From assembly GCF_022045235.1 (NCBI RefSeq), contig NW_027266330.1:16244001-16308000 (forward strand): DNA of 64,000 nt, given 5' to 3'. Position 1 is the first letter of the stretch; each line of letters begins with the position of its first letter. Source of the stretch: Haliotis cracherodii. Taxonomy: Eukaryota. The notes under the pieces are model-generated. The model ran no database searches. It saw nothing but the letters and a program-made list of their open reading frames with translations, and was not told the DNA's origin. The position numbers and the translations under genes were made by a program. This document shows, in pieces, positions 1,177 through 59,630 of this stretch.

Positions 1177-4100
1177 CTGTTTTGGACACCTCTGTATTAC
1201 TTTGCACCCTCAAGATGAGCCAACTTATGCACGGACAAAGCACTGCTCCATACGACAAAGCAACACGGGCGTTGTAAAGATGGCGTTTTTCTGTAAATGT
1301 AAACCAGTGAATATTTCGCGGAGCTCTTGGAGAAATATACACCTTAAACATCGTTCTCTTCTGACAACAAACGAGTGAGTGAGTGAGTGAGTGAGTTGGG
1401 TTTAACGCCGCTTTTAACAGTATTCCAGTTATATCACGGCGTGTCAGCTTAATGTGGGAGGAAAGCCCGAAGTGATGCAGGTCTAAGACGTTTACCACTT
1501 GGTGAAACCCACGAGCACGGGTATGGTGCTAACAAACCTAGAAACATAATCGGGGCGAACCTGGATTCGAACCCACAATCATAGGTTTCTGGCGTGTCCA
1601 GGGGACGCAAATCTGCACAGCGAATCGCGGCGCCTTAGACGACTGGGCCGACCGTGCCCCCTCAACTGAGAGTGAAATATATGTTGTGTAATGGGCGTCT
1701 CATAACCGAAACGTGATTTGGTAAACACTATCTAGTATCGCGGAAAGTTCACTTCGTCGTCCACGTTTCTGTTTTCTAAAACATTCCAAACGATCCTTGG
1801 GTTATCGGCAACGTTTCAGATCATTGGTGATATGATAAATCACAGATTTTGAGAGGTCATTATCAGTGATTCTAATTTGCCTTAAATGACTGATTATGTC
1901 AAAACAGAGAAAGTGCGCAGAATGCAAAACTGGATATACATGTTTCGTGTAAAACTACCAACAGACTCGACATCGGTATACTTTAGTATTGAATGTGTGG
2001 AATGTTAAATGGCGGGTTACTCGGGGGATAAACGACGTGTGTTGTGTACTAAATCGACGAAACAAAACAACTACCGGGCTTCCTGATGTACACCACAACG
2101 CTCCGTAGCACTGCATATGTTAAAAGGATGGAACTCTCTATTGCCGCAAATGCCACATATCCTTAAACAAAAAAAATATGAAAATCACATTGCATATTTA
2201 GCATGGAACTTAAAGATCCCCATATCAATATACAGTTACAATGGTGTATCAATACATCACAGCTACATTTAAGCGGTGAAAATGTTATGGATGCATCACA
2301 TTACTTCAACAATATGACCCCTGCACATTTAACGACACGATTTTACCGTTTGCTAGCGGATGACGTCCATAGTCATAACATAGAACGACCCAGTATACGA
2401 AGAATGCAATACTCCAAAGAAATGACACGCAGCTTCGTAATATCCGTATATCGGTCCTCTCTGGAAAGAATAGAAACAAATCTATGAAATCATGATGATC
2501 GCTTTTAAGTATAAAACCATGTGATATTTTTCTTTCAAATCTAAGGGGCGGTCGGATACCTAGTGGTTAAAGCGTTCGCTTGTGACGCCGAAGACCCGGG
2601 TTCGATTCCCGACATGGGTACAATGTGTGAAGCCCATTTCTAGTGCCCCCCGCCGTGATATTGCTGGAATATTGCTAAAAGCGGCGTAAAACCATACTCA
2701 CTCACTCACTCACTCACTCACTCACTCACTTTCAAATCTAAAATGATCATTTAAAGGTCGAAGACCTCGACAACTCATTATTACACGAAAGGAATTCTTT
2801 ATTCAAACTGTGCAACTGGCCAGCCTTAAAACGAGGTAATGATTATACACGAAGTTTCGTTCGGCTCGATTTGTCAGAATGTATTTACAGTTTGTTTAAC
2901 CCTTATGTGTTTTATAATTCACGAGATGACTTCAAATAATTCATTACAAGGCAACAATCGGGAATGAAAACATACCAGGTCGCCTAATCTTTTTCAATCC
3001 ATTAGGGAAGCGTGTCCAGACGAGCGGAATGATGATAAATTGGATGTATACAAACAGGATGCTGGTGAGAAACAGGTGGAAGCTGAATGTTCCTACAACA
3101 GAACCTCCTGATATATGTTACAGTCAATGTGTAAAATCAGTCAATTTGTAAAATGACTGAAATTTTCATTGAGGCAAGTTAAAAACGTCAAAATATATCA
3201 GTCATTTTACAATTATTTTCCCGTCAGATTCACTAAAAGTTATTGAGAAGTTCAAAGGGCTTAAAAGCATCACAGCATATTTTAGTAAAATCCGCGAGTA
3301 CGGATCTGGTGTTAACAAACATTATCAGGGAAAATCTTGATTTTGAACCCACGATTTGTGGCACAGCAGTTCTGCAGAGCGAGTTACAGCGACCAAGAGA
3401 ACTCCCTTAAATAATTAAGATTTTGAATATACAAAATATAAATCAACAATGGAAGTTCATGCTTTGTCATAAATAAACTAGTTTACCTTTTAAATCTAAC
3501 ACTTCACTATGCACAGTACCAACTTCCATATTTCCAAGAAAACAACGGAATTGCAGTTGACCTTCAACAGTGGGAAGATATGTAAGCTGGCTTGTCGTGT
3601 GATATGCACACGAAACAAGGCGAGGTTGTGATTCACTGACGCCATCTTTGATGCTAAGCCAGTGGATTTCATGTGTAGAATTCTTCATCTCCCACTGCCA
3701 GACATGTGCCTTGCTGCCTTCAACAGCTTCACAGTAGACCGTGATTGAAGTCAGGACCTGGTGTATATCATGTACTGGATCTTTTCTGATGGACGTTGTG
3801 GGCTCAACTGGAATGAACGGTTAAATGTCCAGTAGTTTGGTTTGTTGGTTTGTTGTTTTACGCCGCACTCAGCAATATTCCAGCTATATGACGGCGGTCT
3901 GTAAATAATCGAGTCTAGACCAGACAATCCTGTGATTGATATCATGAGAATCGATCCACGCAATTGGGATCGATGACATGCTTCAACCAAGTCAGCGAGC
4001 CTGACCACCCGATCCGGTTAGTCGCCTCGTACGACAAGCATAGTCGCCTTTTACGGCAAGCATGGGCTGCTGAAGACCTTTTCTATCCCGGATGTTCACG

Positions 4101-5361
4101 GGTCTACTGTGTTTGTGTATAAGCCCCGAAATATATGTATGTAAGTTATAGGTAACGTGTCAAAAGCAACTTACCATGAAACTCAATTGCTGGTGAATAC
4201 GGAAGGTTTAAATAAGAAGTATGTCGATAGTTTCTCTTCATCCCAAACACTTCACACTGAATCTTGGTCACTTCTGTACAATTTAATCTGATGGTGGCAG
4301 TAATGATATTTTCATCAATCTTGTAAACATTCTCAACTCGGACTGTAGTATTCGGGACAGCTGCGAGGATTCCGTCTTTACCCATGTGAACTATCTGAGA
4401 TCCATTGTACACAATACTCCGAGTGTACACCTGGTAAAACTGTCCTACGTGACTGCTTCCATTACACGTCACATTGGCAACAGTGCAGGTTGTGACACTG
4501 ACTTTTAAAACTGAAACATAAGCATTTAAGCAAATATACAGTTTTGGTTCGACAGCATTCGGATCATACAAATAATATAATGTTGTTTGTTGGTTTGTTT
4601 GTTGGTAAGGGCCGCATTGAGTAATATTCCAGCTATATGTAGGCGGTCTGTAAATAATCTGGACTTGACAATCCAGTGATTGATATCATGAGCATCAATC
4701 TACGCAATTTGGATGCGATGATATGCATCAGCGAAGTCAGTGAGTCTGACCACCCGATCCCGTTTGTCGCCTCTTACTGAAGATGAATCTGAAGTGAAAG
4801 AGTTTAGTTTTATCTGAGCAGTGTTTCAGTTGAATCGTGTCAGCTGAAGTCAAAGACCAAAGTATTGTCAGTTATGAGTTTGGTGATTGATAAACAAAAC
4901 CAGGGTTCAAAATCGGGACGAATCGAAAATTCGAGCCATGGGATTCAGATCCTGGAACGACTAAGGACTCAATTTGTTGGGCTACCTGCCCCCTCCAGCC
5001 CGAGGAAATTCCAGGTCAGAATACGTCCCGATCAACCTATGCTTGTCGTTAGAAGCGAGCAAATGGATCGAGTGGTCAGACTCGTCGACTTGGTTAACAG
5101 CGTGTCATCGTCCCCGAAGGTGTAGGTCGTTGTTCACAATATGAATCACTAGGTGTTCTGGTGAAGACTCGATTATTTACAGGCCGCCGAGTGCAGTCAG
5201 CTGAGTGCAGCGTTAAACAACAAACAAACAAACCCGCTCCCGAAAAACAAGTCGATAATTCAAGGTTACGATCTGTCTGTGAAAGATAAACAGCTGTTAT
5301 ACATACCTAATGTCATCATGACACAAGACAGCAATGCCTCCAGCTGAGTCTTGTATTTCAT
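1177..5361 (-). CDS. Gene A: 2xIg + multi-pass membrane protein (pentaspan family), 3' end missing from window
   Basis: Exons (minus): 5361-5307 signal MKYKTQLEALLSCVMMTL; 4510-4175 Ig1 (..CTVANVTC..RLNCTEVTKIQCEVFG..IEFH); 3807-3487 Ig2 (..ITVYCEA..VWQWEM..FRCFLG); 3092-2976 TM1 GTFSFHLFLTSILFVYIQFIIIPLVW..RRP; 2460-2347 TM2 ERTDIRILRSCVSFLWSIAFFVYWVVLCYD; 2161-2075 TM3 GYVAFAAIESSILLTYAVLRS; 1290-1177 TM4 EKRHLYNARVALSYGAVLCPCISWLILR. All introns phase 1 and exon-by-exon homologous to genes D and E. The TM5 exon was not found, so it presumably lies left of position 1. Confidence 0.88.
1373..1661 (-). mobile_element. SINE family 2 (tRNA-like head, ~290 bp, (ACTC)n tail)
   Basis: A-box/B-box-like head (GGTTCGAATCC) and TTCCTCCCAC core. 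Other copies at 6787-7040(-), 21714-21950(-), 26388-26666(-), 30216-30499(-), 46374-46653(+), 51177-51454(-), 53862-54105(-); partial copies at ~8395-8570 and ~14530-14668. Confidence 0.85.
2545..2730 (+). mobile_element. SINE family 1 (tRNA-derived, ~170 bp, (ACTC)n tail) with target-site duplication
   Basis: GGGGCGGTCGG..TAGTGGTTAAAGCG..GGTTCGATTCCC head; direct repeat CTTTCAAATCTAA on both flanks. Confidence 0.9.
3836..4104 (-). mobile_element. SINE-like family 3 (~260 bp, Nin/Deu-like core TGCTTGTCGTAAGAGGCGACTAA, (AAAC)n tail)
   Basis: Near-consensus copy; more than 15 copies in the window, including degraded ones at 4585-4780, 5030-5232, 27433-27663, 27833-28058, 28502-28650 and 31460-31659. 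Confidence 0.85.
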
Positions 5362-5727
5362 TGTCCGATCTGTGTTGTTGTAGTATGGCAATCTGTAGAT
5401 CAAATTGCTGACTAACGGTAAGTATCACAAGGTAAAGAACATCTGTTGCCAGTGTAAAATTGATATGTATGTCGCAATGTCAATTCTCTCCCATTCGCAC
5501 ATCAAATACTTGTAAACTAGGACACATCGACATCTATGAAATGTATACTCACTGTTACAGAGAGAGCTAACTTCACATTTTTACAACAAACTATCTATTT
5601 GCACAAGGCATACGCAGTCCCTTGCCAGTTGCATTGCAAGTCGGCGAGGCTATATTCAACAGGCGCGCACTACATGTTGGCCAGACCAGTATATCCTCCG
5701 CTGTAGGTGCACAGTATGGTGATCCCG

Positions 5728-6412: not shown

Positions 6413-6457
6413 CAGGTTTCACGTGTTACTCTCAGCTTCCTATCGTACGTCTGATCA

Positions 6458-6720
6458 GACCGCCACCGTGGTCTAGTCGTAGAGCCGCCCGGGAGCGGAA
6501 GGTCGGTGATCGATCTACGGTCGCGTCATACTAAAAGACATTAAAAGCTGGTACCTGTTGTTACCTTGCCTGGCTCCCAGGATTAAGTGGATGAAAGAAG
6601 GAGTGTTCGGCTCAGTATCTGTATTTTGTATCTTAGTACGGTATTCATGTTAACACCGAGGCATGGCATCACACACACGCGTCGCTAATATAAAAGCAAT
6701 CATCATGAACGCGATGTTAA
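6458..6720 (+). mobile_element. SINE family 4 (tRNA head + Meta-domain-like core), degraded
   Basis: GACCGCC.CCGTGGTCTAGT head and GTCATAC.AAAAGAC.TTAAAA..TGGTAC core, homologous to 13826-14185. Confidence 0.7.
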
Positions 6721-8728: not shown

Positions 8729-11700
8729 GAAAGACAGAACTTAAATAAATATATATCCGCATGTATCTAAATGTTCACTGAGAGGAATCGAGCGGTTGTG
8801 TGGCTGCTTTATTTGTGAACGGTGAAGATTCATTCGTCTTTGTAATTTAAGTTCTGTCTTTCCGATATACTTTTCATTGCATCCACTACAAACAATCACA
8901 AGCCATATTTTGTTTTACAGCAAAGTTAGTGTTCTTTGTAACAAATGTCCTTCACCGTTCACAAATAAAGCAGCCACACAACCGCACGATTCCACTCAGT
9001 TAACATTTAGAAACATGTGGAAGCGGCATCTTTTTAGTTTTCCCGCTATATAAGCTAAATTTTGATCATGAACCTACATTGTTTCAAAAAGAGCAACATT
9101 TCATTCATAAATACGCGCATAGGTTAAATGTAAAGGCGAAAATTATTATGTATATAGTATACGCTTACAGTCTATTTGATCATCCGCATAGTTTGAGAGC
9201 AAAATATTTTATGTCTCAAGAAAATGATAAATTCAATATAAATGCATTCTGTCATTTCAGATTGTGCCATAGAGTTGACGGTTACCCCGGAGGCCATTAC
9301 GCTTGGAAATGATGCAAAGCTCGTTATCCGATGTAGCCTTAATTTGCGCTTGTCAAAAACTGACCAGGTGTATTCTGTTATGATGAAGAGAAGAAACACT
9401 GCACTCGTTGTTATATTTACAGACAGTACGACCAATGTGTATGATGAAACTTTGAAAAATGCCACAGTAAACTCATCCCTCTCAACATCGGATGCCTACG
9501 TACAGCTAACGTTTCCAACTGTCACGTGTAATGACAGGGGCAATTACTCCTGCAGTATGGCCGTCAGACAAAATCATAGAAGTCTGAAATTGGGTCCTGT
9601 TGAAGAATATCTGAAGATCACAGGTACATTGTCCATTCCTCTCTATTTCATACAGTTACTGGTAACCCAGTAACCAGCCTATGCAGAGCTGCGTCCCATA
9701 CAGGACAATATCCATTATACGAAGGTTCAAATTCCTGTTTTATCTTTATCATCACCGATAGGCTTACACACAATGTTGATTTGTCGCTTTCCTTGGCACG
9801 CAATGATATAATTTCAGTAGTTAAACCTTATTCCCTTTCTCGGTTTATCAGTTTCGGCTCCCTGCCAACAGTAAGGCACGCAGTTAGGGTCAGTTAGGGT
9901 CAGTAAAGGTCAGTAAAGGTCAGTTAGGTTCAGTTAGGGTCAGTTAAGGTCAGTTAGGGTCAGTTAGCGTCAGAGTCAGTTAGGGTCTGTTAGGGTCAGT
10001 TAGGGTTAGTTAGGGTCTGTTGGCCACGGAGTTATGTAATCTGAGATCTGTAATTCTTCTGACAGCTTGCCTTGGCCGTAACTGTAGCTCTGCGCAAAGA
10101 CAACAGTATAAATGGTACCAGTGCATGTATGTTTGTATTTATCACCTGCTTCAATGAAATATTGAAATAGCATGAAAGCCAATGGGAGAATGGCAACAGT
10201 TTGGTAACTTTTGTTGCATGAATGTAGTTAATTTGTCCCTGGTCGGGAGGTAGCCTGAAGAGCCACAGCTCGGCATCGGCTGGCATTAGCTGGCACGGTA
10301 ACACGGATGCCAGAATACTTTGCCCAAAGTCCTTGGTCGGGATGGGCCACAGTTACAGCCAAGGGTACTGGCAAGCAATACAGATGCCACATTATGTCGC
10401 GGCAAGATCAGTCAGGTCGCAACTGCTCATGTGTTAACTGGCTGCAAACTGAATGGTATTCGTACGTGTAACCTCTTTTATTTAGAAGTTTGAGTACTAA
10501 GTAAGGATAAGATATATGGATGAAAAACTTCTTTATTACAATTAGTAGAGACGTTTCGGTGTAGGTTCTTACCGTAGTCATTTTTCAAGCAATATGACTT
10601 GCTTGATAACGGTGTTAGAACCTACACCGAAACGTTCCTAATTGTATTAAAGAAGTTGTTCATCCATATATCTCATCCTTCCTTATTCTTATGCTGGTGT
10701 CCTTATGAAAGTAGTAGCGATACACAGAATAAATACATGACATTCAACGAATGTATCAATGATAAACTGCACGTTCATTTCAGGTGAATCTTGTCGGTTC
10801 ATCGACACATTCATTTACCCGATGAGTGCTTACAAGATTGGGGATATGGTGAGAATAACGTGTTTCATGCTGGTACAATATGCAACATCCGATTGGCATT
10901 GGTACTTGGCGAATAATGAAACAGTTTACAAATCGGAAGAAGGAGGATGCCAATTTGTTGCAGAGGGAGTAATGAACTGCTCAAGTCTTCTCGAATATGA
11001 AGTTTATATGAGTTCAACCGTTACTTGCCAACTGGGCAATGCGTACAGAACTGTCACAATTGATGTTGAAGATAATGTCGTCGAAGGTATACGTTTTATA
11101 TATTTTTTTAAAACAAAAGACCCGTGAAAATCCGGGGTAGAATAGGTCTTCAGCAACCCATGCTTGCCGTAAAAGGCGACTTTGCTTGTCGTAAGAGGCG
11201 ACTAACGTGATCGGGTGGTCAGGCTCGCTGACTTGGTTGATGCATGTCATCGTATCCCAATTGCGTGGGTCGATGCTCATGATATCAATCACTGGATTGT
11301 CTGGTCCAGACTCGATTATTTACAGACCGCCGTCATATAGCTGGAATATTGCTGAGTGCGGCGTTAAACAATCAACAATTTTAAACAAAAAAATGCATAT
11401 ATATAATTAGTCAAACCTTACTCTCGAAACACAATAACTTCGTTTTTTAAGTGTTAAAAAAATGAGTCTCGTCACCCAATTTTGTGTATTTACAAATTTT
11501 AGACACAGATTCAATGTCCATGAAACCGCAGCAGGTGGATCAAACACTCCCGTCTACACCAGGTGAGCAAATCTCGATTTATCGATAACCTGCTGGATGA
11601 ACTAATTTTTTTTGTATTAAGTATTCCTTCATTTAAGAAATTATGAATTATATACGTTCATCTAGAAATGCGATAATGAGTTAATGTCAGCCTTAAGATA

Positions 11701-13489
11701 ATGATTCAGTCACAATCTATGCACCGAAAGCCTTATTGAATGTTATAACTTTTAAATACTTGTCCTGTTTGATTCAGGTCATGTCACGCACATCAACTAT
11801 ACGACATACATGCTCGTCGGGCTGTGCTCTGTCGTGACTATCGCAACTCTACTCATAGTGCTGAGAACAATAAGTATGTATATTTTAATAAATGTGTATC
11901 CTTTTTCATCTTCTTGTAAGTTGCCCGTTTGGGTACATGGTAAGGTTTGTTTGTATTTGTTTGTTGTTTAACGCCCCACTCAGCAATATTCCAGCTATAT
12001 GACGGCGGTCTGTAAATAATCGAGCCTGGACCAGACAATCCAGTGATTGACATCATGTGCCTCGATCAACGCAATTGGGATCGATGACATGCATAAAACA
12101 AGTCGGCGAGCCTGACCACCCGATCCCCTTTGTCGCCAGTCGTCTTTTACAGGAAGCATTGGTTGCTGAAGTCCCATTCTACCCCGGATCTTCATGGGTC
12201 TAATGGTGTCTGAAACAAACATCAACAGTTACATTGGTTTACAACGGTTTGCATTTCTCAGGTTATTTATACTGTCATGAAATCGTATTTGGACAGCGTC
12301 TTTGTATTATCTACGATAATGTGTAATGTTTATACGATACAGTATCATAAAACCGACCATCGAATGCCCATTTTTAAATTTCAGAATCGCGTGCCACTAG
12401 CATATAATTCGTGCCAAAGTTGGTTTAATAATGTTGGAGCTTTTGATTTATTTACATGTTTCACGTGTATTGTTATGGATAATATTGATTGATTGACTGG
12501 TTTGTTGTTTTACGCCGCACTCAGCAATATTCCAGCTATATGACGGCGGTCTGTAAATAAACGAGTCTGGACCAGACAATCGAGTGATTGATATCATGAG
12601 CATCAATCCACGCAATTGGGATACGATGACATGCTTTAACCAAGTCACCGAGCCTGACCACCCGATCCCGTTAGTCGCCTTTTACTACAAGCATAGTCAC
12701 CTTTTACAGCAAGCATGGGTTGCTGAAGACCTATTCTACCCCGGAATCTTCACGGGTCGTTATTGATAATACCATATTCCAATCGGTATAAGTATATAAC
12801 ACCTTCCAAACTACACTCCTGACAAGGGAGGCACGGGTGACCGAGTCTCTGTCACAATTCGCTGAGCAGAGACGCGTGGTTTGGGGGTGTTAGAATTCCT
12901 TATTATGCTTCTACTTTCTACAATAACACTTTACGCATGCTACATGTTAACATTTCACAAGTCATATTTCTAATTGGCATTTAGTATTGGGATGGTTTCC
13001 AGATAAAATGTCTGTGTCCAACACTTTTACAACATGGCCACTAGCATAAACCGCCGGGCAAATGGAACTGTACCTTGCAAATTGGATGTGACAACCGTTA
13101 CCAAAACGGGACTAGGTTGAAAACAGTCGCCGAAACACTGCAAATGTAAGGTCCGAAAACGTCATCGAATAACCATTTCATGTTTGTTTTATTATTAGCC
13201 TCTACCACAATGTACATTCTTTCTTTTGCCCGGCAGTAAGTTACTTTATAAGAGCTATACTAGCTGTTGCAGAAACAATAACATGTGTATTTAACAGTTG
13301 GTATTTTTTCATATAGGCAATAGAAGACAATGTTCCAGTGAAGATAACCACATCGTCAAAGAGGAGGAGGTGCAACTGTCGAAACGTCACATTACCAACC
13401 TTCATTTATTTACCAAGGAGGAGGATACAATAGATATATGTGAAACGCTCCCTTTAACTTCTTCCGAAAAGAGTGACCATATTTTATGA
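7981..13489 (+). CDS. Gene B: single-pass type I receptor, V-like Ig + second Ig + stalk + TM + Tyr-free tail (~347 aa)
   Basis: Exons: 7981-8029 signal MDLTFFLLCSLLSSVT; 9261-9623 V-like Ig (IRCSL..VYSVMMK..VTCNDRGNYSCSMAVR); 10784-11086 Ig2 (VRITCF..DWHWY..VTCQLG); 11503-11562 stalk; 11778-11873 TM (MLVGLCSVVTIATLLIVL-RT); 13317-13489 tail SNRRQCSS..SDHIL*. Canonical GT-AG, all phase 1, total length 1044 nt in frame. Confidence 0.85.
8728..9020. repeat. Inverted-repeat (MITE-like) element in intron 1 of gene B
   Basis: 8757-8830 is the reverse complement of 8950-9020 (~70 bp, few mismatches). A further inverted pair lies at 8728-8745 / 8845-8862, next to a (TA)n(CA)n microsatellite. Confidence 0.75.
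9880..10020. repeat. 10-bp tandem repeat (CAGTTAGGGT)n in an intron of gene B
   Basis: About 14 imperfect copies, each containing a TTAGGG-like hexamer. Confidence 0.85.
10503..10680. mobile_element. Palindromic Penelope-like (PLE) terminal remnant
   Basis: Roughly 85-bp inverted arms around 10590-10600, each carrying a CTTGA(T)AAcggtg...caccGAAAcgt motif resembling PLE 3' pLTR / hammerhead-type ends. Confidence 0.55.
11119..11377 (+). mobile_element. SINE-like family 3 copy
   Basis: Starts GACCCGTGAA..CCGGGGTAGAATAGG; full length. Confidence 0.85.
11945..12200 (-). mobile_element. SINE-like family 3 copy (variant subfamily)
   Basis: Shares diagnostic variants and a 5' flank with 22515-22760. 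Confidence 0.85.
12492..12758 (-). mobile_element. SINE-like family 3 copy
   Basis: Near-consensus; shares variants with 20738-21008. Confidence 0.85.
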
Positions 13490-16219: not shown

Positions 16220-19200
16220 CTATTCAATTTCCTCATAGATGGGTTCAGTGTGAAGGCCTTGGTTCTGCAGCATGCTGCAATCGGTAGGATCTTCAGGATG
16301 AAGATAGGCTGCTTCATGGTCTCCGATGTCCTTGTGAGGAGGGACACTTGGCATGTTTCTGGCGTGAATGATTATCACTTTACTTCCTGCTCGCTTGATG
16401 CGGTGACTCTCGGTGTGATGCGACTCGGAACAGTTGTTTGAAGTAGAGTGTTGGCATTTACATTTCCGATCTAGAAATAGAAGAGCAAGATTAGTTGTAA
16501 AGCATTGAAGTCTTCAAGTACGTATACAAATGGTTGGTAACATATCTTTTAAAATCCGACTTAACAATTGACATTTCATTCTAGAATAAATCAAAATATT
16601 AAGTTTTGTTATTATCTTATGATAAACATTCTTTTTTTTTATCTAGATATCAATTATCTAACCAACTAATACATGACATTCCGTCTAAAGTTTCCTTGTG
16701 CCATGTTCACCAGACATGTTAATTGTGTTCCATGGAATATCGCACATCGTTAATGTTGCACAATATAAAGTTGTGGAAAAAAGAAAAAAAATGGTAATAT
16801 GTCACAGAAGCTTTTAAATAACCTTAAAAGTATAAATATGCTTTTCTCAAACTCATTTCTGTTAAAGATAATTGTGTTTCATTATGTTCATTTGGCAACA
16901 CATGTATCCTGGTATTCTAATTACTGAACTTCACTCCACTTTCGAATACTTTGCCTCTTTTTTGTAACATAAACTTTCGTCTTTCCAGATCCAAATCCCG
17001 TTAGTATAAACTTGGCCCATAAGAAACAAATCGATAAAAGCTTTTCGCAAAATTACCTGATAAAAAGAGATGGAGAAGTGTGAAAACCAGGATAACAGCA
17101 AACGCCGACACAAGAACATATAGCACCATCAGTCCTATTCCTCCACTGTCTGTTATGGCGAACAGAAAACAATATAATGGAGGATAATAACACATTGTAT
17201 TTTTCTCAAGAATAAACACATTGTTTCATTCAAGTAAAGGGACAACATTTATGTACTGAGTAGTATGGGATCAGTTAAGTGAGTGAGTGAGTGTGGTTTT
17301 ACGCCGCTTTTAGAAATATTCCAGCAATATCACGGCGTGGGACACCAGAAATGGGCTTCACACATTGTACCCATGTCGGGAATCGAACCCGGGTATTCAG
17401 CGTGACGAGCGAACGCTTTAACCACTAGGCTACCCGACCGCCCCTGGGATCAGTTTAAGAGATGTGAGTTACCATCGGATATTGTAACGGTTACGGCTCA
17501 GTGGTATGTTTCTCGAAATTATCTGCAATTACTTTTCAAAAAAATTTAAATTTTTATTTTAACATTTATTTTAAACATTGCCAGTCAGATATGATAAAAA
17601 GTATAAGTTTGTACATAGATGTATTTTTGATATGACATGATTTTGGAATGGGGACATTCAGGTATTCCGAAACTTACCTGGGTGTGTGATTGCTGAGGAG
17701 ACAATTGACTTGTTTGTGACTGTAACGTTGGTTGTCTGTTCTTTTGATGAATCTTGAAAGTAAGGTTAATTGTCATTGTATGAAGAAATTACTCTGATCT
17801 CATAGGATGGTGTTATGTCATTGCCTGTTACCGTTCCGTCACTTAGTTACATTTCGATATTCCCTGAACTCATCACTGGACCTTTGCAGGCACACAATTG
17901 TTGGCCTAATTTAAAAAGGAGTGATGACACTGTCCCGGCCGTCATTCATGACATTCAAACATCACTTACATATTTGGTGTGAGTGAGTATGGTTTTACGC
18001 CGCTTTTAACAATATTCCAGCAATATCACGGCGGGGGACACCAGAAATGGGCTTCACACATTATACCCATACGGAGAATCGAGCCCGGGTCTTCGGCGTG
18101 ACGATCGAACGCTTTAACCACTAGGCTGCCCGACCGCCCCTTACACATGTGGAGGACAAACATAATATTCGATGCAATTCCCGATTTTGACTTGTACCAC
18201 ATGTTCCCGTGTTGTTTTAGGTGAACAATTGACCTGCCTTTGCATGTGTTTGTGCCGGGTGCCACCGGTGGAGCAGGATACGCTCCCCTTTTCGCGAACA
18301 CCTTGTTTCATCACTATTTAATAGTGATTCATAAACACATGTTCAAGATATAGTCGGAATCAAACAATCGACTTTTTTATGAGTACGGAAAGGTTTTTGT
18401 CGCTTTTATGTTTATATACTGCACTATTGATACACGTCTGTTTTTCTGAAATATACATATTTTGAGTTCATGAACAATGCGATATTAAATGGACGTCGCA
18501 TTGTACAACGCAGTCATGGACAACACCGTTGACAGACAAACATCAACTATGAGAAAAGCATTGTAAGGGGTACATATCTAAGTATGTTATTTAGTTTAGG
18601 TATACTAATTGCAAATATTTAAAGGTTATAATCATCTCCATGATAAGTTCAAGATAGCCTCAGTCAGCTGTAATTGACATACGTGTATGCATTCTCATGT
18701 TTCAAATATCAAAATATTTTCGAAGCGACCAAATAGTGTTTGGTAAGGAAAGGGTCAGTCCAAATTTGGGCTTCAAAGGAATGATTTGTATAACATGGAG
18801 CCGTGAACGGAATCATTCGATATCCCTTTGTATAACTTTGAATGTATAGATACAGCATGAACAGGAGATGGATGAAAGCAAAAGTGCAATTACATTCATC
18901 TATGTATCGAGTTTCGATTTGGATCTTACCTGGAAATGACGTGGAGACGTTTGGATGTATGTGTTGGAGAGACACAAGATCTACCAAAAAAGAAAAGAAT
19001 GATATATTTTTTAACAGGTGTTTAACAGACAATATCCGCAAGCTAATTGCACCAAACGTGTTTTAAAATAAGAATAATGATCATTAAACTTATAACTCCA
19101 GTTGACTCGAGTCTTCCGTCCTTAAGAACCAGTACTAACCTTTAAGGTTTGGAGAATGTGACAGGTTTAATTTTATTTCATTTTTGAGTTCCCCATTTAG

Positions 19201-22200
19201 ACATTTGATAGGACCTCCGGCGTCTTTTCTTGTGACAGTATATTCTATAGAGCTTGAACACATGTGTAAACATTCAGATTCATCGTATGTGCAATTGTTC
19301 GATACATTGTGGTTGTTTTGATTTGGCAAAAACCACGACCAATCGGCTTCCTCGTAGTTCTTCAATACAGAGCAGGTAATGTTGACCACTTCGCCTTCAG
19401 TGTAGGCAGGTCTGTCCGGGGTCACTGTGAGGGAAATACCACTTGGGTCACCTAGATATAACAGAAGGTTTCACTTTCAGTCATCTGTTGTTCAAGTAGG
19501 AAATATAATATAACAGTGCCATTAAGAATTGACAGCCATACAACAACCAGCTAAATCGCGGGGTAAAATAGTTCCTCAAAAAGAGAGGTGACATGGGCGT
19601 ATGGATGCACAACTTGCTCTTCCGAAACATCTTACGCAGCAGATGTGTTCAAATCATATCATCAGATGAGAAAGGTCTGTAAAGAACTACCTCAGTAAGT
19701 CAGTCACAATGACAGCGCGTCGTAATACAATCACATCAAGTACAAGACGTCAAAATGGCCGACACGATAAACGTGACGGGAAAGATTTCCGAAGTTGTTA
19801 ATGAACGTGTGGCGGCTACATGTGTTAGTCATCATTGATCAAATGGCCGATCATTGAAAGGTGAATAAAGATGCGTCAAACAGACACAAAGGTAAATTCA
19901 TAGATTGCTGGAGACGGTCAATGTCAGCCTAGGCACGGATCGAGTCGATACTACGATAGTTTAGATGTGCATTTCTTCGTTTGTTCATTAGGATGGGCCG
20001 TAGCGAGAATATTCGTGAACAATCGTGCAGTCACGGTCTCTGATATTTCTCAATGTATACTGAAAGGCTGAGACCAAGAATGAAGGTTCTAAATGATCAG
20101 AAAGAACGCTTATTCATGTTTTCGTGCTAGGGAATTCCCAGGGGATTCCCCAGGAATGTGGATGTAGTCCGTCAGTGTTTACGTCATTTCAAGAACACGG
20201 GCTCGTGGAAAACGTATGAACGTCAAATTGTGTCGTTCATAAACTTCAATAAACGTCAATTTCGCGGTCATGTGACCGACCTCTCGTCCCGCAGAAAAGC
20301 CGTATATCGTGTTAACTTCAAATTAAAAAAATATTACAAAAAAAGAAATACTATGGGTCACTTCTATAAAAGTAAACGCCATAATATTTTCATTCACTGG
20401 TAATACATTATCTTCCCGATTATCATTCGAGTTCACTCGCTTGCAAGGCATTGGTGTACTTGTGACGTTATCTTTGTTTAGTGAGTGAGTGAGTATGGTT
20501 TTACGCCGCTTTTAGCAATATTCCAGCAATATCACGGCGGGGGACACCAGAAATGGGCTTCACACATTGTACCCATGTCGGGAATCGAACCCGGGTCCTC
20601 GGCGTGACGAGCGAACGCTTTAACCACTAAGCTACCCGACCGCCCCTATCTTTGTTTAAACAGACAAGCGGACACACGCCTCCAGAGACAGCGAAGAAGT
20701 GTTGTATTGTCGTTGACGTTTTGAGTATCAAATTCTAGTTTGTTTGTTTGTTTGTTGTTTAACGCCGCACTCAGCAATATTCCATCTATATGACGGCGGT
20801 CTGAAAATAATCGAGTCTGGACCAGACAATCCAGTGATTAATATCATGAGCATCGATCCACGCAATTGGGATACGATGACATGCATCAACCAAGTCAGCG
20901 AGCCTGACCACCCGATCCCGTTAGTCGCCTTTTACTACAAGCATAGTCACCTTTTACGGCAAGCATGGGTTGCAGAAGACCTATTCTACCCCGGAATCTT
21001 CAGGGGTCTCAAATTTACACTGCAAATTTACACAAAGTAAACTTCGAAATTTATGTAATTTTTGAAAACGAGTAATCGATGACATATATCCCTTAATCTT
21101 TTGTGAATGTTCTAAACATACTACCAATGTCTTATAAAAAAATATCAATTCTACGTGACGAATACTATTTGTACCTCTCCAAAGTGAAGTCTAAAAACCG
21201 TGTCCTGGAATTCATGTGGTAATTCTTTAGAACATTTTAACATCACTGACTAAAGGCCACATACATTATATTTGACGAATGCATGTACATGCTAGGGCCT
21301 CTAAGCCTTAAATCTAACTCATTATAAGGAGATATCAAAAGGCTGTGATCCAATGCATATTTGACATTTGGGTTGTGTGTAGTGCAATTCTACCTCGATA
21401 ATGTACTCCTGCAAATGCACTTATACAAAAGCACTTTTCAAACTTCCAGTTTACCATGGGATAAACAGACCGTGGGATTCGAGTGGAATGTGATCATGAA
21501 AAGTACCTTTTCTGTGAACTGTTCACTTAATCATGTAATGTGCTATTCGTGAAACTCTAGTATTTGTACTCTAAGACAGATAGAGTATCCGTGACAGTAC
21601 CATAACGTGATAAAAGAGAAACAGTTGCAAGGCCATTTTTATAAATGCTTCTGTTTCAGTTATGACGACACGTTGTTCCTTTCTTTATCAAACCTTAACA
21701 AGACGCGGATAATAGTGAGTGAGTGAGTGAGTTAGTTTGGTTAAAGGCCTCATTTAACATAATTTCAGGAAAGCCACGATGCAGGTCTCAGACGTTGACC
21801 AATTTGGTGAAACCCATGAGCACAGGTATGGTGCTGACAAACCTAGAAACATAATCGGGAAGAACCGTGATTCGAACCCACGATCATAGGTTTCTGGTGT
21901 GTCCAAGGGACGTAATGCTACACAGCGAATTGCGGCGCCTTAGACGACGGGTAATTAATAACGATTAATAACGCAAATAATAATCACTGAAGTCCGACAC
22001 ATTCTCAAACAAAACGTCGGGAGGACTCACCCTTGACTTCCAAACGAGATGTAACAGGTCCAAGCTCCATGCTGTTATACACATGTCGAACTGCCATGCT
22101 ACAAGAGTACTCTCCCTTATCCATACACGTGACGTCATCCAGAGACAATTGAAGAAAAGCAGTGGAAAAAGATTCTGTGGCCACCGAACCATTGGCAGTG

Positions 22201-22934
22201 AACTTTGATTCCGTCATCTCAATGCTTCCATCCTGAAATAAAATAGCCACGGAACTCCCTCCTTTCTTAAGCATTATCGAGTACACCGTGTCCGTCCTCG
22301 AGAGCACCATATCAAGGTGGCATCGTATAGTCACGGGTCGAGAACTGCCTGGACGAATTATCTTCGGCTTGATATCTAGGATGATCTGGCACCCTATAAA
22401 AGCATAAAACAATATGCAATCAGAATGAATTGACACGGTATAACTAACAACAAACGTAATGTATCACAAGCCACTATTTACATAAAAGTGAAATACGCCA
22501 ACATATATTTTTCGCTCGATTGTTGTTAAACACCGCACCCAACAATATTCCAGCTATCTTACGGCAAGCTGTAAATAATCAAGTCTGGACCAGACAATCC
22601 AGTGATTGACATCATGTGCGTCGATCAACGCAATTGGGATCGATGACATGCATCAACCAAGTCAGCGAGCCTGACCACCCGATCCCCTTTGTCGCTAGTC
22701 GTCTTTTACAGCAAGCATTGGTTGCTGAAGTCCCATTCTACCCCGGATCTTCACGGGTCTAATGGTGTCTGAAACAAACATCGACGATAACATTGATAAA
22801 CATTGAATATTGTAAGCATTGTTTTAGCGTTTGAAATAATCTATAGCTATCGACTTAGCTTTTTTGGAAAACGTACCAGCGAAACCCCACTCAGCGAGTA
22901 CGACGTAGAGTATTGTCCGAAAAAAGTACTCCAT
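16220..22934 (-). CDS. Gene C: single-pass type I receptor, V-like Ig + second Ig + S/T-rich stalk + TM + Tyr-motif tail (~400 aa); paralogue of B
   Basis: Exons (minus): 22934-22877 signal MEYFFRTILYVVLAEWGFA; 22393-22031 V-like Ig (363 nt, same length as in B; IRCHL..VYSIMLK..VTCMDKGEYSCSMAVR..LGPV); 19451-19140 Ig2 (VNITCSV..DWSWF..IKCLNG); 18980-18930 and 17752-17678 stalk; 17149-17057 TM (GLMVLYVLVSAFAVILVFTLLHLFL); 16470-16220 tail DRKCKC..AAYLHP..EPIYEEIE*. All phase 1. Confidence 0.88.
17278..17444 (-). mobile_element. SINE family 1 copy
   Basis: High identity to the family; TGGGATCAGTT direct repeat on the flanks. Confidence 0.88.
17978..18140 (-). mobile_element. SINE family 1 copy
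   Basis: High identity to the family. Confidence 0.88.
20480..20646 (-). mobile_element. SINE family 1 copy
   Basis: Consensus-like; TATCTTTGTTTA direct repeat on the flanks. Confidence 0.9.
20738..21008 (-). mobile_element. SINE-like family 3 copy
   Basis: Full length. Confidence 0.85.
21714..21950 (-). mobile_element. SINE family 2 copy (degraded)
   Basis: Homologous to 1373-1661. Confidence 0.75.
22515..22760 (-). mobile_element. SINE-like family 3 copy (variant subfamily)
   Basis: Homologous to 11945-12200. Confidence 0.85.
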
Positions 22935-29900: not shown

Positions 29901-31070
29901 ATGTTTAATATTTCAATTTATTTATTTCCAGGTTACGTTTGTTTTTTGGTTATGGAATCATTGTTCTTCATTCTTTATGCTGTTGTCCGACTGCTGCCTG
30001 AAAGGTTCGAGAAAGACGGTAAGTAATAAGAATTACCGGTAATACACGCGTGTATGGGTTACTGACAAATCTTCACATATTGTGTTTTTTATACCTCTTC
30101 GCAGTTGTTAGGTAATACCATTGCGGCATTCTCATGGTATCATATGTAAAATATTACCTTATACCCCACTACCGAATTAAGGGATCAACAAGTCAGGTCC
30201 GGGTTATTAATATTAGTGAGTGAGTGAGCGAGTTGGATTTAACGCTGCTTTTAACAGTATTCCAGTTATATCGCGGCGTGTCAGCTTAATGTGGGAGGAA
30301 AGCCCGAAGTGATGCAGGTCTCAGACGTTTACCACTTCGGTGAAACCCACGAGCACTGGTATGGTGCTGACAAACCTAGAAACATAATCGGGGCGAACCG
30401 GTATTCGAACCCACAATCATAGGTTTCTGGCGTGCCCAAGGGACGCAACTCTGCACAGCGAATCGCGGCGCCTTAGACGACTGGGCCACCCGTGCCCCCG
30501 TTATTAATATTAACTGACACATCGTAAATAGAACAAAGCATCCTACTTCTTGTTTAATCTGTTATTATTTGTAAATGATCATGATCTGGTTCTGCATTTG
30601 ACTATCATTGTAGGTGAAAGACTTCTCTACAACTGTAGAGTATCACTATCCTGCGGAGCTGTCATAACTCCGGGTATCTGTTGGGTGATGATCAGAACTC
30701 AGATGCAACTAGCGTTCTCCATACAGGGTATTATATCTGTTACAGCTGTCATAACTCCGGGTATCTGTTGGGTGATGATCAGAACTCAGATGCAACTAGA
30801 GTTCTCCATACAGGGTATTATATCCAGAGACTATCATAAAGTCGTAGTCTGGACTAAATACATATGATTATTGTATTAAAATATTATATATAACTGTAAT
30901 ACAATATTAACACATGTGAACATATTCCTACGCCATTTATGTGCATATACTGAAACTTATATGTTATGTTTGCAGAATGTGTCTGGTTGGTGGTGACAGC
31001 CATTTCACTCATCACCTTCGTTTCTGTTTCCAACAAGAGAGAATGGAAGTCATGGGACAAGCGCAGTTGA
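26907..31070 (+). CDS. Gene D: 2xIg + five-TM membrane protein (~410 aa), complete
   Basis: Exons: 26907-26955 signal MEMTRFATGLTALYTI; 27070-27408 Ig1 (VECQ..FLECELASTIYCVLYG..TEFD); 28071-28382 Ig2 (LLTCAL..MWWQ..VKCMFG); 29006-29140 TM1 SSHLFLSTGFLVYPHFVILPPF; 29628-29729 TM2 RRAWISLITGIIFLVWWIIVI; 29932-30018 TM3 GYVCFLVMESLFFILYAVVR; 30614-30727 TM4 ERLLYNCRVSLSCGAVITPGICWVMIR; 30976-31070 TM5 + tail ECVWLVVTAISLITFVSVSNKREWKSWDKRS*. Total 1233 nt, in frame, all phase 1. Confidence 0.9.
28765..28928. mobile_element. Tc1/pogo-type MITE
   Basis: TA-CAGTCAAA...CGTTGTGTC and GACACAACG...TCTGACTG-TA terminal inverted repeats. Confidence 0.65.
30216..30499 (-). mobile_element. SINE family 2 copy with TSD
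   Basis: GTTATTAATATTA duplicated on both sides. Confidence 0.9.
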
Positions 31071-33845: not shown

Positions 33846-36800
33846 TCAATAACATTTTTCCGGTACTTCCCAATACTTTCCCTCTCGGCTCTTTGAGACG
33901 CAGACGAATCCAGTAAAGCATCCGATCGTCACCAACCAGAAAAAGACCTCTGAAATGTTATGTACACGAGACTGTGTAATGTCAACATATTTCTTTAGAT
34001 GATCTGATCATTATTTTTCCAAAATAATATTAATGTATCACTTTATGAAACAATGCTTTCCAAACGAAATTTGATTTTTTTGTTATCTAACGCCACAATC
34101 AGCAATATTCCAGTTATATGACGGCGGGCTGTAAATAATCGAGTCTGGACCAGACAACCCAGTGATTGACACAATGAGCATCGATCCTCGCAATTGGGAT
34201 ACGATGACATTCATCAACCAAGTCAGCGCCTTAACACCCGATCCCGTTAGTCGCCTCTGACGACAAACATATAGTCGCCTTTTACGGCAAGCATGGGTTG
34301 CTGAAGACCTATGGTGAACAGATGAAGCAAATAAATGTTTACCTACCAAGTCCTATGATGCTAGTGCCTCCATAACACCTGATCATAATCCAGCATATAG
34401 AGGGCGTCATTGTCGCCCCATAGGAAGTGGCTACTCTGATATTGTACAAATATCTCTGACCTGTGAACATGAAATGTATGAGTTAGAAAGGTCTTTGTGT
34501 CCACCTAAAAGCACTCTCCCTGCACACTGTCACCGTTGCGCTGCTTAAATAAAACACCCACAAATATTGACATTGTTATCACATTGTATTGTTTCATCAC
34601 TTGTGATACACAAAGGGTTGGGTCCTTTTTCCCGAACGGACATACAAGGTAAAAGATGTTATTATTTGCAAAAGTCTGTCAAAAAGGATGAGTGTGCATA
34701 AAATTAAATATTTGGGAAATAGTACAACGTTTCGTATACAAAGCCACAATGAACAATAAAGATCTTACGTTTTTTTTCGAAGCGCCTGGACAAGTTTGCA
34801 ATGAACCTCGTGAGGGTGTAGCCAAGTACGAAGACAAATTCGATCACAGCATACATGAAATAACCTGTGTACATGAATACACATGATTAGAAATAGGGAC
34901 AACAAAATCTAACTACAATAATTTGATAATTGAAAACTAATAATTTATATCGACCTGATAGTTTTCTGATGAAACAAAATAACTAACCTAATGATCTGAG
35001 AAGATGGTCTCTTAGAATTATGATCCACCATATGAAGAACGCGAGGCCCACAAGGAATGACATTGCCGTACGAAATCTGCGCATACACAATCGCTCTGAA
35101 AATATGAATAATAACGATTCTTACCTGAAACAAAATCATCATACAAAAATTTGTATGAACACCGATTGGACATGAAGAACAATGACAAGATATTTCAATT
35201 CTTAGTGCATTTTCAAGAACAGGGTACCTTATTTTAAATATATTCTCACCTGGTTTTCGAAATGTTACTTTGTCTCCGAACAGAGCAAATACACATGGCA
35301 AGATGATGAAATGCATGTACACTAACATGCTCGATAGAAACAGATGGGTACTGTGATTATCTGGAAATAGAAACTTAACCGGTGCATATCTAAATAATTC
35401 ATCTATCTTATTACTGGATGATAATGCTTGATTGAGCTATATCTCTTGATAATCGAGATATTAAGAACATCCACACGAACATATGCCCAACATATTCTTA
35501 GAGCCATTGAAATGAAACATGAAAGATATATGAAACATGAAAGATATATATGAAACGTCAACGCGCAAGAATAGCCAATCTCGATTATCGGACGAAACAG
35601 TTTGCATTAGTTGGCAATATAGCGATGAAAATAAAATGAATGGATCACTGGAAATCAGTAATGACACCAGGTGTTCGCGAAAAGGGTAAGTAACATCAAA
35701 ATGTTAACCCGATTTAGTCCTACACTGCAACTTTTCACAGTCATTAATGTCATTATAAATTCTTATAATGTATGTACTAGTCAGTGCATTATAACATTTC
35801 ATAGTTAGTAAGATAAAAAAATGACAAACCCCTGCCAGTTCTGATTGTGAGAGAAGTTGACCTTGACCTATCGTTTTCAGCGATACACTTCAGAGATATG
35901 TCCCCATGTTCTGCGGGCACGTGAACATATTTACTGACAGCATGGTAGGAACACTCTGATAGAGTCACAGTGCTTGCTTGAGGGCTGTCACCAGGAACGG
36001 GTTGGAAGCCTGTGATATCTGAGTGACTGATCATCCATTGCAGTCTAGTTCTGTTAACTCCAAACTGCGCAGAACATATGAACAGCACGACATCACCAAC
36101 GCCGTATGTCTCCTTCACAGGCGTCTGAGTGATTGAAACATTGCTTGTAGCAACTACAACATAAAAATACAAATAGCTATCATTCATTAGGCATTCATAA
36201 AAACAGTACCGTGGATTGCTGAACATATTATTTCAACTCATAACTGCTGCGTTGCATCTGTAGAGAAATATACAACATGCATAGATGGTGCTTCACCACA
36301 GAGTGATGCGTATACCAGATTTTGATCACTTTCACTTAAACATAAGCATATTATAAATAAAAGCAACAAAGCCAGTCAATAACCATAATAAATCTCTGCT
36401 AAGAGAAGAGTCCACTGTACGATATGGACCAAATCTTAAGCACATTTGATTATATACCAGATGTCCGCAAGAAGGTGAGCGTGAAATTGTTTTGAGCAAA
36501 GGTAGCATAATGCTCTTTGAAATCTTCGTGGAAATATTGCGTGATTGCACTGATCAATTCATTAATCAATGATACTTGTGAACATTTGTACCATTTAACA
36601 TCTAACAACATGACAGACAGACATGTACACGTACATTGTGGTCATTCGTCATGACAATGTTCACATAAATTGAATGCGGAAAGAATGAGTTAACTGTGTC
36701 CTACCATTAAATTCCAGCTGCGGCGTGATTGTCAAGTTAGTGTAGGATGTTGGGTTGTATACCATTCCAAATGATTTACATCGAATATGTTGGACATCGC

Positions 36801-38125
36801 TGCATTTGATGTTAAGGCTTGCTCTGAGAATTCCAACTTCATCGGTTATATGTCCAAAAGGACTGGAAACAATTCCACTGGTAACTTGAACATCGACCAT
36901 GTCGTTACTAAAGAACATCAACTGTGTCGTGTTGATAAATAGGTTCATTGAGAAAAGTCTAGAAAGTTGTTCACATTTACACTCGACGTTTACGTTTATG
37001 GCAGGTGCGGTTTTCGCCAGCAACACTGGAAAAAATAGAAGATATATGGCATGGCTAAACATTTTAAAGTTTAACTTCACCTCTGGAAAATATGCTCAGG
37101 GAAATAGTCCCAAAATAGTCCCAAGTGCACCAAGAAACTGTGTACATTTTTTTCTCATAACATTTGCTCATTATAATACAATGCAGGTTATAAAGTTTGA
37201 CATGATATTCCGTTGGTAAATACGAAGGTCGGAATCATTAAAAAGGTCAAGCAGCGTTTAACTTGATGTTTATGCCTTAGACGGGGGCGGTGGTGTAGCC
37301 TAATTGTTACTGTGTTATCTCGTCATGGCGAAGGCCCTGATTCGATTTACAGCATGGGTACAACGTGTGAAGAAAAACCTCCAACCCCTTTCCATATCCA
37401 ATAGAAAAGTCTGCTCAAAGCAGAGTCAATTGTACTATTCCGACTATAGCATGAGCACATGTTTATGGATCACTATTAAATAGTGCTGACACCAGGTGAA
37501 ACCCACCGTGATAAACGGCAGCTTTAACTAGCAAATGAAAGCGACAAAACCCTTTCCATATTCATAAGAATTCTCTGCTTAACACATTTCAATTGAATGA
37601 TATTCAATTTACATTCTGCTACTATTAACCAACTAGTATACCTTGCTCATCATTATTATCACAGCTGGTAGAATAGACCTATGCTTGCCGTAAAAAGCAA
37701 CTATGCTTGTCGTAAATGGCGACTAAAGGGATCGGGTCGTCAGGCTCGCTGACTTGGTTGATGCATGTCATCGATCCCAATTGCGTGGATCGATGCTCAT
37801 GATATTAATCACTGGATTGTCTGGTCCAGACTCGATTATTTACAGACCGCCTGTCATATAGCAGGAATATTGCTAAGGGCGCCGTTAAACAACCAGCCAA
37901 CCAACCAAAATGTTTAAGGCACATTTTAATTCTCTCTTACAGAATGGGTTATGTGTCCTTAAAATCATTGGAGTTATTGTAGCAACTATGCACTTATCTA
38001 AATCAAGGTATTGATATTTCAATGCAATTTAGAGTTTGAATAAACTATTTACATTGTAGATAAGACCAACGATCAAGTTAAACACACTCACGGCAAACAG
38101 CTACACACTTGTAAAATGCCGCCAT
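33846..38125 (-). CDS. Gene E: 2xIg + five-TM membrane protein (~403 aa), complete; paralogue of A and D
   Basis: Exons (minus): 38125-38092 signal MAAFYKCVAVC(LLLAKTAPA); 37025-36705 Ig1 (VECK..IKCSDVQHIRCKSFG..LEFN); 36153-35830 Ig2 (LFICSA..LQWMI..LKCIAE); 35360-35250 TM1 STHLFLSSMLVYMHFIILPCVF; 35095-34988 TM2 RFRTAMSFLVGLAFFIWWIIILR; 34864-34769 TM3 GYFMYAVIEFVFVLGYTLTR; 34460-34347 TM4 QRYLYNIRVATSYGATMTPSICWIMIR; 33949-33846 TM5 + tail EVFFWLVTIGCFTGFVCVSKSREGKYWEVPEKCY*. Total 1212 nt, in frame, all phase 1. Confidence 0.9.
34085..34311 (-). mobile_element. SINE-like family 3 copy
   Basis: Homology to the family. Confidence 0.8.
37665..37908 (+). mobile_element. SINE-like family 3 copy
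   Basis: Homology to the family. Confidence 0.8.
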
Positions 38126-38505
38126 GGCTGACGTTTCACTTTGTGACATTCAGCTGTGGAGTAATGATACTGTGTGTTAAAACAAGCAACAACAAAATAT
38201 AGCGTTGACAGCGTCAAAAACGTTTCATTGATAGATAAAACCTTGTAGGCGAACGTGAATGAAACTGCTTACCTCCTCTCTCGGAAACCGAGCTGCCGTT
38301 GATATTCTGACAGTGTCAAAGTGTATAGCTTAGGGTATGTACGGCACACTGTTTATGCCATAAAACACATGTTCTCGTAAGGATTATGTCCCAAGTTAAT
38401 CATGGTGATTACCTATTGCTAACAAGTATAAAAACATAAATGTTTTGCATTGAACACAAACTGACAGGCCACATAACGCTGTTTGTATATGTAGGAAAAA
38501 TAAAG

Positions 38506-59243: not shown

Positions 59244-59630
59244 AAACGTATATGCTACTAATTTGTTGTTTATTCGGATATTCAAGCCACGTACGGTAAT
59301 GGGTTAAACAGCTGATAATAAGTATGACATGTTCGTACATTCGATGTAAGTGTGTGTGAATAGCTCCTGTCAACGGGTCGGTCAGACGTATGGTGAAGCG
59401 CGCATGCGTGAGGCGGGGAGAAGGCTGACATTTTGAGAGCTCCGACAAAAGTTAAGAAAATTGTGTGTTTCAACCGAAATATTTGCTTTAGGCGAGACAT
59501 ATCCTGCATGACCATTCTCCAGGGACAATTCCCATAACGCTCAGCGAATATTTGAAACTTTTAACGTTGCAACTGCCATATTTTCAACTCTGTGTGTGAG
59601 TGAGCGAGAACCGTCACAAATAAGACCGCC

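What the first reader, a model, noticed from the sequence alone, without database searches (positions are those of the whole stretch)
34347..35095. The pentaspan domain contains an internal exon repeat (TM2 exon resembles TM4 exon)
SEEN: gapless alignment in E of ERLCMRRFRTAMSFLVGLAFFIWWIIILR with RQRYLYNIRVATSYGATMTPSICWIMIR (R9, A11, S13, F/Y14, I22, W24, I25, I27). In A, ERTDIRILRSCVSFLWSIAFFVYW aligns with EKRHLYNARVALSYGAVLCPCISW (E1, R9, S13, F/Y14, W24), and both exons are 114 nt. INFERENCE: the 5TM domain arose as 1 + 2x2 by tandem duplication of a phase-1 two-exon helical hairpin. That would favour an independent origin and predicts 3-TM or 7-TM relatives.
Basis: seen in the sequence. 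Interest (0 to 1): 0.7.

Follow-up and report, generated by a model that had tools for sequence, protein, structure and literature searches.

The report
Abalone five-helix receptor's hairpin repeat
An uncharacterised abalone gene family encodes a likely cell-surface protein with two predicted immunoglobulin domains and five predicted membrane helices, one helix per exon, and a faint likeness suggests that helices 3-4 likely arose as a copy of helices 1-2, which would show how a CD47-shaped protein can be built by exon duplication.

Summary
The stretch holds the TM2, TM3 and TM4 exons of a spliced abalone (Haliotis) Ig-Ig-5TM gene, one of four paralogues. The quoted alignments are real: R9, S13 and W24 lie at the same distance from the acceptor in TM2 and TM4 exons in 3 of 4 paralogues. 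Equal exon length holds in only 1 of 4, and every exon is phase 1, so neither point singles out these two exons. Alone the likeness is weak (HHalign 5.7%, P 0.0066). Best reading (0.5): an ancient duplication of the TM1+TM2 exon pair (2x2+1), probably on a V-C2 receptor like the single-pass neighbours. No 3-TM or 7-TM relative was found. Kinship with CD47 is open: a language-model lead only, no profile or fold match.

The parts
38092..38149 (-). Gene E first coding exon (signal-peptide-like)
   Evidence: P0013 residues 1-19 map exactly to 38149-38093, followed by C|gtgagt
36705..37025 (-). Gene E Ig1 exon (321 nt, phase 1-1), predicted V-like
35830..36153 (-). Gene E Ig2 exon (324 nt, phase 1-1), predicted C2-like
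35250..35360 (-). Gene E TM1 exon (111 nt); its 3' end FRKP is the left part of repeat copy 1
34988..35095 (-). Gene E TM2 exon (108 nt); R9, S13, W24; right part of repeat copy 1
34769..34864 (-). Gene E TM3 exon (96 nt); its 3' end FEKK is the left part of repeat copy 2
34347..34460 (-). Gene E TM4 exon (114 nt); R9, S13, W24; best conserved exon; right part of repeat copy 2
33846..33949 (-). Gene E TM5 exon with short tail and stop; not part of the supported repeat
1177..4510 (-). Paralogue A: Ig1 4175-4510, Ig2 3487-3807, TM1 2976-3107, TM2 2347-2460, TM3 2075-2161, TM4 1177-1290 (GC donor); TM5 exon lies just left of the window (L004:9913 downwards)
   Evidence: 70% identical to P0012
27070..31070 (+). 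Paralogue D: Ig1 27070-27408, Ig2 28071-28382, TM1 29006-29140, TM2 29628-29729, TM3 29932-30018, TM4 30614-30727, TM5 30976-31070
   Evidence: 68% identical to P0009
30657..30824 (+). Recent tandem copy (81 nt, 99% identical, period 87) of the 3' part of the D TM4 exon with its donor
9242..11900 (+). Neighbour B: V-set + second Ig exon + one hydrophobic exon (approximate bounds of open frames)
16223..22463 (-). Neighbour C: V-set + C2 exon + one hydrophobic exon + tail ending IYEEIE (approximate bounds of open frames)

Best explanation
The stretch holds three of the five membrane exons of a spliced abalone gene for two predicted Ig domains and five predicted helices, and the in-register likeness of its TM2 and TM4 exons is likely the remnant of an old tandem duplication of the TM1+TM2 exon pair (2x2+1), not of TM2+TM3. 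Shown: one helix-length hydrophobic segment per exon, all introns phase 1, so exons can be copied or skipped in frame; the likeness covers about the last 10 residues of TM1/TM3 plus the first 28 of TM2/TM4, centred on the two basic loops, with the introns in register. Inferred: a V-C2 receptor of the kind that sits beside it (genes B, C) gained membrane exons; the out-in/in-out hairpin was copied once before the four paralogues split; TM5 is a separate or unrecognisably diverged exon. Predicted topology: N-terminus out, loops 1-2 and 3-4 inside, short tail inside. Function is untested: most likely a cell-surface recognition molecule that works like CD47 or SKINT1, binding a partner through the V domain and signalling through membrane partners, since the tail is short and no enzyme domain was found (about 0.35 for this step).
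For: Splicing of E seen in contigs of 4 runs. R9/S13/W24 in both exons in E, A, D. HHalign TM1-2 vs TM3-4: 54%, P 1.3e-4, 52 columns across the junction; reversed target 0.4%. Intron-anchored profiles: junction 1|2 vs 3|4 p 0.0008 in a 7-residue block shuffle, the other 5 of 6 junction pairs p 0.07-0.43; shift scan -8 at shift 0 against -25 to -47 at the 12 other shifts. Against unrelated loops allowed their best shift, E, A and D sequences at shift 0 were reached by 0-7 of 109 E. coli and 0-8 of 105 abalone loops. Cross-paralogue tests p < 0.03 in 6 of 8. K+R counts 3-7 in loops 1-2 and 3-4 against 0-2 in loops 2-3 and 4-5, windows of 19 and 12 residues. A recent tandem copy of part of a TM exon exists in D. 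Family Ig2 profile hits the second Ig exon of C (E 2.5e-4) and B (E 3e-3) among 5776 frames.
Against: Only four paralogues of one genus (Neff about 3). Single exons: TM2-TM4 5.7%, and TM2-TM5, of opposite orientation, scores as well (8.1%, 7 columns); against 264 unrelated helices TM2-TM4 p 0.02-0.20. HHalign P-values are inflated here: 2 of 3 reversed controls reached P about 0.001. The 20+28 window was chosen. Junction 1|2 of paralogue F fails (p 0.67). The helix bodies of TM1 and TM3 show no shared invariant residue. Unanchored exon HMMs do not find the partner exon at E <= 5. Both loops are basic and both even helices end in Trp, which topology alone favours.
Confidence: 0.5

Rival explanations
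1. No duplication: TM2 and TM4 look alike because both are inside-to-outside helices that follow a basic loop and end in Trp; the register match is luck picked from many pairs.
For: Per-gene p 0.03-0.28; TM2-TM5 as good as TM2-TM4; signal weak without reader-named columns; F does not fit; no DNA likeness (1 of 7 comparisons p < 0.05).
Against: Block shuffles and decoy loops keep this topology pattern and are still beaten; sharp peak at shift 0; the left side matches as well.
Confidence: 0.3
2. Serial multiplication: several or all five helices descend from one phase-1 membrane exon, odd and even copies then diverging by orientation.
For: All TM exons are symmetric phase 1 and 84-144 nt; weak TM2-TM4, TM2-TM5 and TM1-TM3 scores; public isoform models skip single TM exons (P0002, P0011).
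Against: TM3-TM5 and TM1-TM5 show nothing; the TM exons of B and C match no TM exon profile at E < 1.
Confidence: 0.12
3. One reading: TM1 plus two copies of a TM2+TM3 hairpin (1+2x2).
For: TM2~TM4 likeness; an E in TM3 and at the start of TM5 can be aligned with a 6-residue gap; self-comparison shows a weak off-diagonal at this spacing (6.9%).
Against: TM3-TM5 1 column, shuffle p 0.10; two-exon test 1.5%, below its reversed control; junction 2|3 vs 4|5 p 0.19, starts of TM3/TM5 p 0.29; reached by 24-67 of 67 and 48-117 of 117 decoy loops.
Confidence: 0.08

Closest known systems
CD47 (integrin-associated protein; Pfam PF04549 + PF08204)
   Same: Ig ectodomain, five membrane helices, short tail (PMC8410850, passages and section 10; PMC9319280, passages). 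Top two ESM Atlas feature hits for paralogue A are CD47 clusters (0.88, 185 of 256 features; a lead only). One phase-1 exon per helix in CD47 is recalled, from no call.
   Different: Two Ig domains, not one. No Pfam CD47 or V-set_CD47 match. The membrane part of E alone gave no Atlas hit. PMC8410850 reports CD47 from mammals, birds, reptiles and poxviruses; the word 'symmetry' does not occur in its main text.
SKINT1 (butyrophilin family)
   Same: IgV + IgC + several membrane helices (three; PMC4382165 and PMC5960712, passages). SKINT1-like cluster among Atlas hits (0.84); butyrophilin and B7 ectodomains among top fold matches of the Ig pair (Z 9.3-10, rmsd about 7).
   Different: Five helices here; mammalian family; no sequence match found. 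That some mouse Skint proteins have many more helices is recalled, from no call.
Cytochrome b561 / generic four-helix up-down bundles
   Same: Best fold matches of the predicted membrane domain (Z 9-11, rmsd 3-4, mostly helices 1-4).
   Different: Z is within the range the tool calls common for helical bundles; no invariant His in the membrane domain, so no heme role is suggested.

Membership tests
CD47 family | Five membrane helices after an Ig ectodomain, short C-terminal tail | tested here: met
   Five helices in both AlphaFold2 models (pLDDT 61 and 67); hydropathy per exon 1.3-2.5, TM4 weakest; prediction only
CD47 family | Single IgV ectodomain | tested here: not met
   Two Ig exons and two predicted Ig folds in all four paralogues
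CD47 family | Match to Pfam PF04549 (membrane part) or PF08204 (V-set_CD47) | tested here: not met
   No match in 3 + 4 proteins and 7 membrane parts at E <= 10 with HMMER filters; none at these loci in genome searches
CD47 family | CD47 5-TM fold with helix III central | tested here: inconclusive
   Model pTM 0.55; coordinates not available; fold searches gave generic bundles
CD47 family | Disulfide between Ig domain and the loop after TM4; SWF linker; GLG at helix III | tested here: inconclusive
   Invariant extra Cys in Ig1 (C94) and Ig2 (C194) and an invariant Cys near the end of TM4 (C362), but distances not measurable and gene C shares the Ig2 Cys; no SWF or GLG at those places by eye
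CD47 family | One phase-1 exon per helix, as in vertebrate CD47 | not tested
   True of the abalone genes; the CD47 side is recalled; searches gave no confirming passage
CD47 family | Binds a SIRP-type inhibitory receptor | not testable with these tools
   No experiment; no complex job was run
SKINT / butyrophilin family | IgV + IgC followed by multiple membrane helices | tested here: met
   Architecture only
SKINT / butyrophilin family | Sequence kinship with butyrophilins | tested here: not met
   No such hit; fold matches at 6-13% identity
Internal two-exon repeat, 1+2x2 | TM3 resembles TM5 | tested here: not met
Internal two-exon repeat, 2x2+1 | TM1-2 resembles TM3-4 with introns in register | tested here: inconclusive
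   p 0.0006-0.0008 with all columns, 0.06-0.16 without reader-named columns; met in E, A, D, not for junction 1|2 of F
Internal two-exon repeat, 2x2+1 | Hairpins superpose with equivalent residues | not testable with these tools

The most novel reading that the evidence does not exclude
These genes are true invertebrate relatives of CD47, and the abalone copies still show the TM1-2/TM3-4 duplication that built the CD47 five-helix fold; the cluster pairs them with single-pass V-C2 receptors as a mollusc self-marker system older than vertebrates.
Probability: 0.12. Interest if true: 0.85.

Novelty: new variant of a known kind. Interest (0 to 1): 0.45.

Why it matters
PMC8410850 calls CD47 the only five-helix receptor of the immune system, with a fold unlike any other protein, so its origin is unexplained. 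An expressed mollusc family of the same shape either dates that design to before vertebrates or shows it was built twice. A readable exon-pair duplication would give the route, and a direct test for CD47: look for TM1-2 ~ TM3-4 there. As it stands the repeat is a moderate signal in one genus, and the function is untested.

Tried and rejected
tblastn of exons over 184 kb: no TM2 exon hit a TM4 exon at E <= 0.5. Alignment of exon fragments with full proteins was unusable. Three word-based searches and one full HMMER search found only Haliotis members; P0007, a bacterial-type repeat protein, was dropped as spurious; searches covered only about 214-721 residues, so longer many-helix forms are only partly excluded (one search had no length limit but used a 3-sequence profile). 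PDB sequence searches gave only E > 0.1. CD47 was not among the rows shown in any fold search; its membrane part may not be the library's representative, so this is no evidence. No listed run is on record as RNA. Joints of gene D were crowded out by a repeat. DNA-level comparison of exons and introns: nothing convincing. One search timed out and was rerun smaller. Earlier findings of the scan: none in 3 look-ups. Papers: no description of this family or of a mollusc CD47 in the listings of searches (listings only; most subscription journals are not held; supplements of PMC8410850 were not read). Equal exon length and phase 1 were rejected as evidence. No complex prediction was run.

Full report
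What the locus is. The window carries three genes of one kind: E (minus, 33846-38149), A (minus, running off the left end) and D (plus, 27070-31070). Each has two Ig exons and five membrane exons; all internal exons are multiples of three and all introns phase 1. The E model is 100% identical over 391 residues to a public Haliotis protein, P0013, and A and D are 70% and 68% identical to H. asinina proteins. Contigs of four runs (guessed RNA, three studies, with substitutions against the window) join E's exons at these sites: three joints in 4 of 4 runs, one in 3 of 4, and TM4-TM5 in consecutive pieces of two runs. A fourth paralogue, F, lies at G000:C40:91.8-98.8 kb with the same exon plan. 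All relatives found are Haliotis and are named 'uncharacterized'. AlphaFold2 gives two Ig folds and five helices at modest confidence (pLDDT 61; membrane part alone 67, pTM 0.55).

The observation. The coordinates and both quoted alignments are right. R9, S13 and W24, counted from the acceptor, occur in both exons in E, A and D. F breaks the pattern in TM2. Equal length is true for A only: TM2 108/114/102/108 nt against TM4 114 in 4 of 4. Per gene the likeness is near chance (p 0.03, 0.10, 0.28; 1 of 30 pairs under 0.05).

I cut ten sequences (four from this genome, six orthologues; isoforms P0002, P0005, P0006, P0010, P0011 left out) into exons. HHalign gives TM2-TM4 5.7%, P 0.0066, 27 columns in register; TM2-TM5 8.1%, P 0.0042, 7 columns; TM3-TM5 one column. 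Against 264 unrelated helices, TM2-TM4 scores p 0.02-0.20, with the best shift 0 in 7 of 8 comparisons; TM3-TM5 p 0.46-0.97.

Which unit repeats. Two-exon profiles decide between the models. TM2-3 vs TM4-5: 1.5%, reversed control 20.9%. TM1-2 vs TM3-4: 54%, P 1.3e-4, 52 columns, reversed control 0.4%. Reversed controls reaching P 0.001 show that these P-values are generous. I therefore compared ungapped profiles fixed at the introns (20 residues left, 28 right; window chosen). The score peaks at shift 0 (-8 against -25 to -47). The left side alone gave p 0.013. The exon ends read FRKP/FEKK in E, IRRP/IRKP in A, FRDP/FEKD in D, and do not match in F. Against 109 E. coli and 105 abalone loops (34 and 39 proteins; the abalone ones are GPCRs and MFS carriers, related among themselves; helices called by hydropathy), each allowed its best shift, E, A and D at shift 0 were reached by 0-7 and 0-8 loops; F's junction 3|4 by 8 and 13; F's junction 1|2 by all.

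Limits. The signal leans on W24, R9, I22, I27, I/T18, S13 and the hydrophobic residue at -4. Unanchored exon HMMs do not find the partner exon among 5776 frames. The helix bodies of TM1 and TM3 share no invariant residue. I could not superpose hairpins, as model coordinates are not provided.

Mechanism. Best reading, 0.5: the TM1+TM2 exon pair was copied once in tandem before the paralogues split, giving 2x2+1. Phase-1 symmetry makes such a copy frame-neutral (shown), and a pair keeps the downstream topology (inferred). That membrane exon DNA does get copied in tandem here is shown by an 87-nt-period, 99% identical repeat in D's TM4 exon. The family's Ig2 profile hits the second Ig exon of the single-pass neighbours C and B (E 2.5e-4, 3e-3; HHalign 17.5%), their V exons only at E 0.3-0.4; this hints, weakly, at a local V-C2 ancestor. 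Basic loops 1-2 and 3-4 fit N-out, C-in. The role as a surface recognition molecule is inferred from architecture alone.

Comparison with known systems. CD47 has one IgV, five helices and a short tail, and its fold was reported to resemble no other protein (PMC8410850: passages and section 10; PMC9319280: passages). SKINT1 has IgV, IgC and three helices (PMC4382165, PMC5960712: passages). The Atlas feature search with whole paralogue A ranks two CD47 clusters first (0.88, 185 shared features), a lead below the 0.9 mark that may reflect architecture; the membrane part of E alone found nothing. Pfam CD47 models do not match. The membrane model matches generic bundles at Z 8-11. So it works, at most, like CD47 or SKINT; membership of neither is shown. 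The repeat does not settle the origin, because CD47 was not tested for it. PMC9652883, PMC12065747 and PMC7349405 (passages) added nothing.

Verdict. Interest 0.45, mostly for the family.

Noticed in passing
window 30657-30824 (+): Recent tandem copy (81 nt, 99%, period 87) of the 3' part of gene D's TM4 exon; the frame stays open to a second donor at 30814, which would add 29 residues. Absent from H. asinina P0009; contig depth in three runs drops after about 30725.
   Followed up: partly
window 9242-11900 (+) and 16223-22463 (-): Two single-pass V + second-Ig genes (B, C) sit between the five-helix genes; C's tail ends in IYEEIE, like a Src-SH2 site (motif recalled). Possible partners or ancestors.
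   Followed up: partly
P0002, P0011 (public isoform models): Isoforms that skip one membrane exon (TM1 in E, TM3 in D), which would give four helices and flip the downstream topology.
   Followed up: no
window 1177: Gene A's TM4 exon appears to use a GC donor, keeping the 114-nt length; inferred from the orthologue and the frame, not from reads.
   Followed up: partly
G000:C40:214989-215081 (L017): A second copy of F's TM5 exon with no other family exon found in the 19 kb before it.
   Followed up: partly
window 50357-51175 (+): Long exon of a major facilitator carrier (Pfam MFS_1, E 6.5e-17).
   Followed up: partly
window 59600-63540 (+): Frameshifted LINE-like element with endonuclease- and reverse-transcriptase-like frames, judged by eye.
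   Followed up: no
window 118-954 and about 5670-6470: Two minisatellite arrays with long open frames.
   Followed up: no
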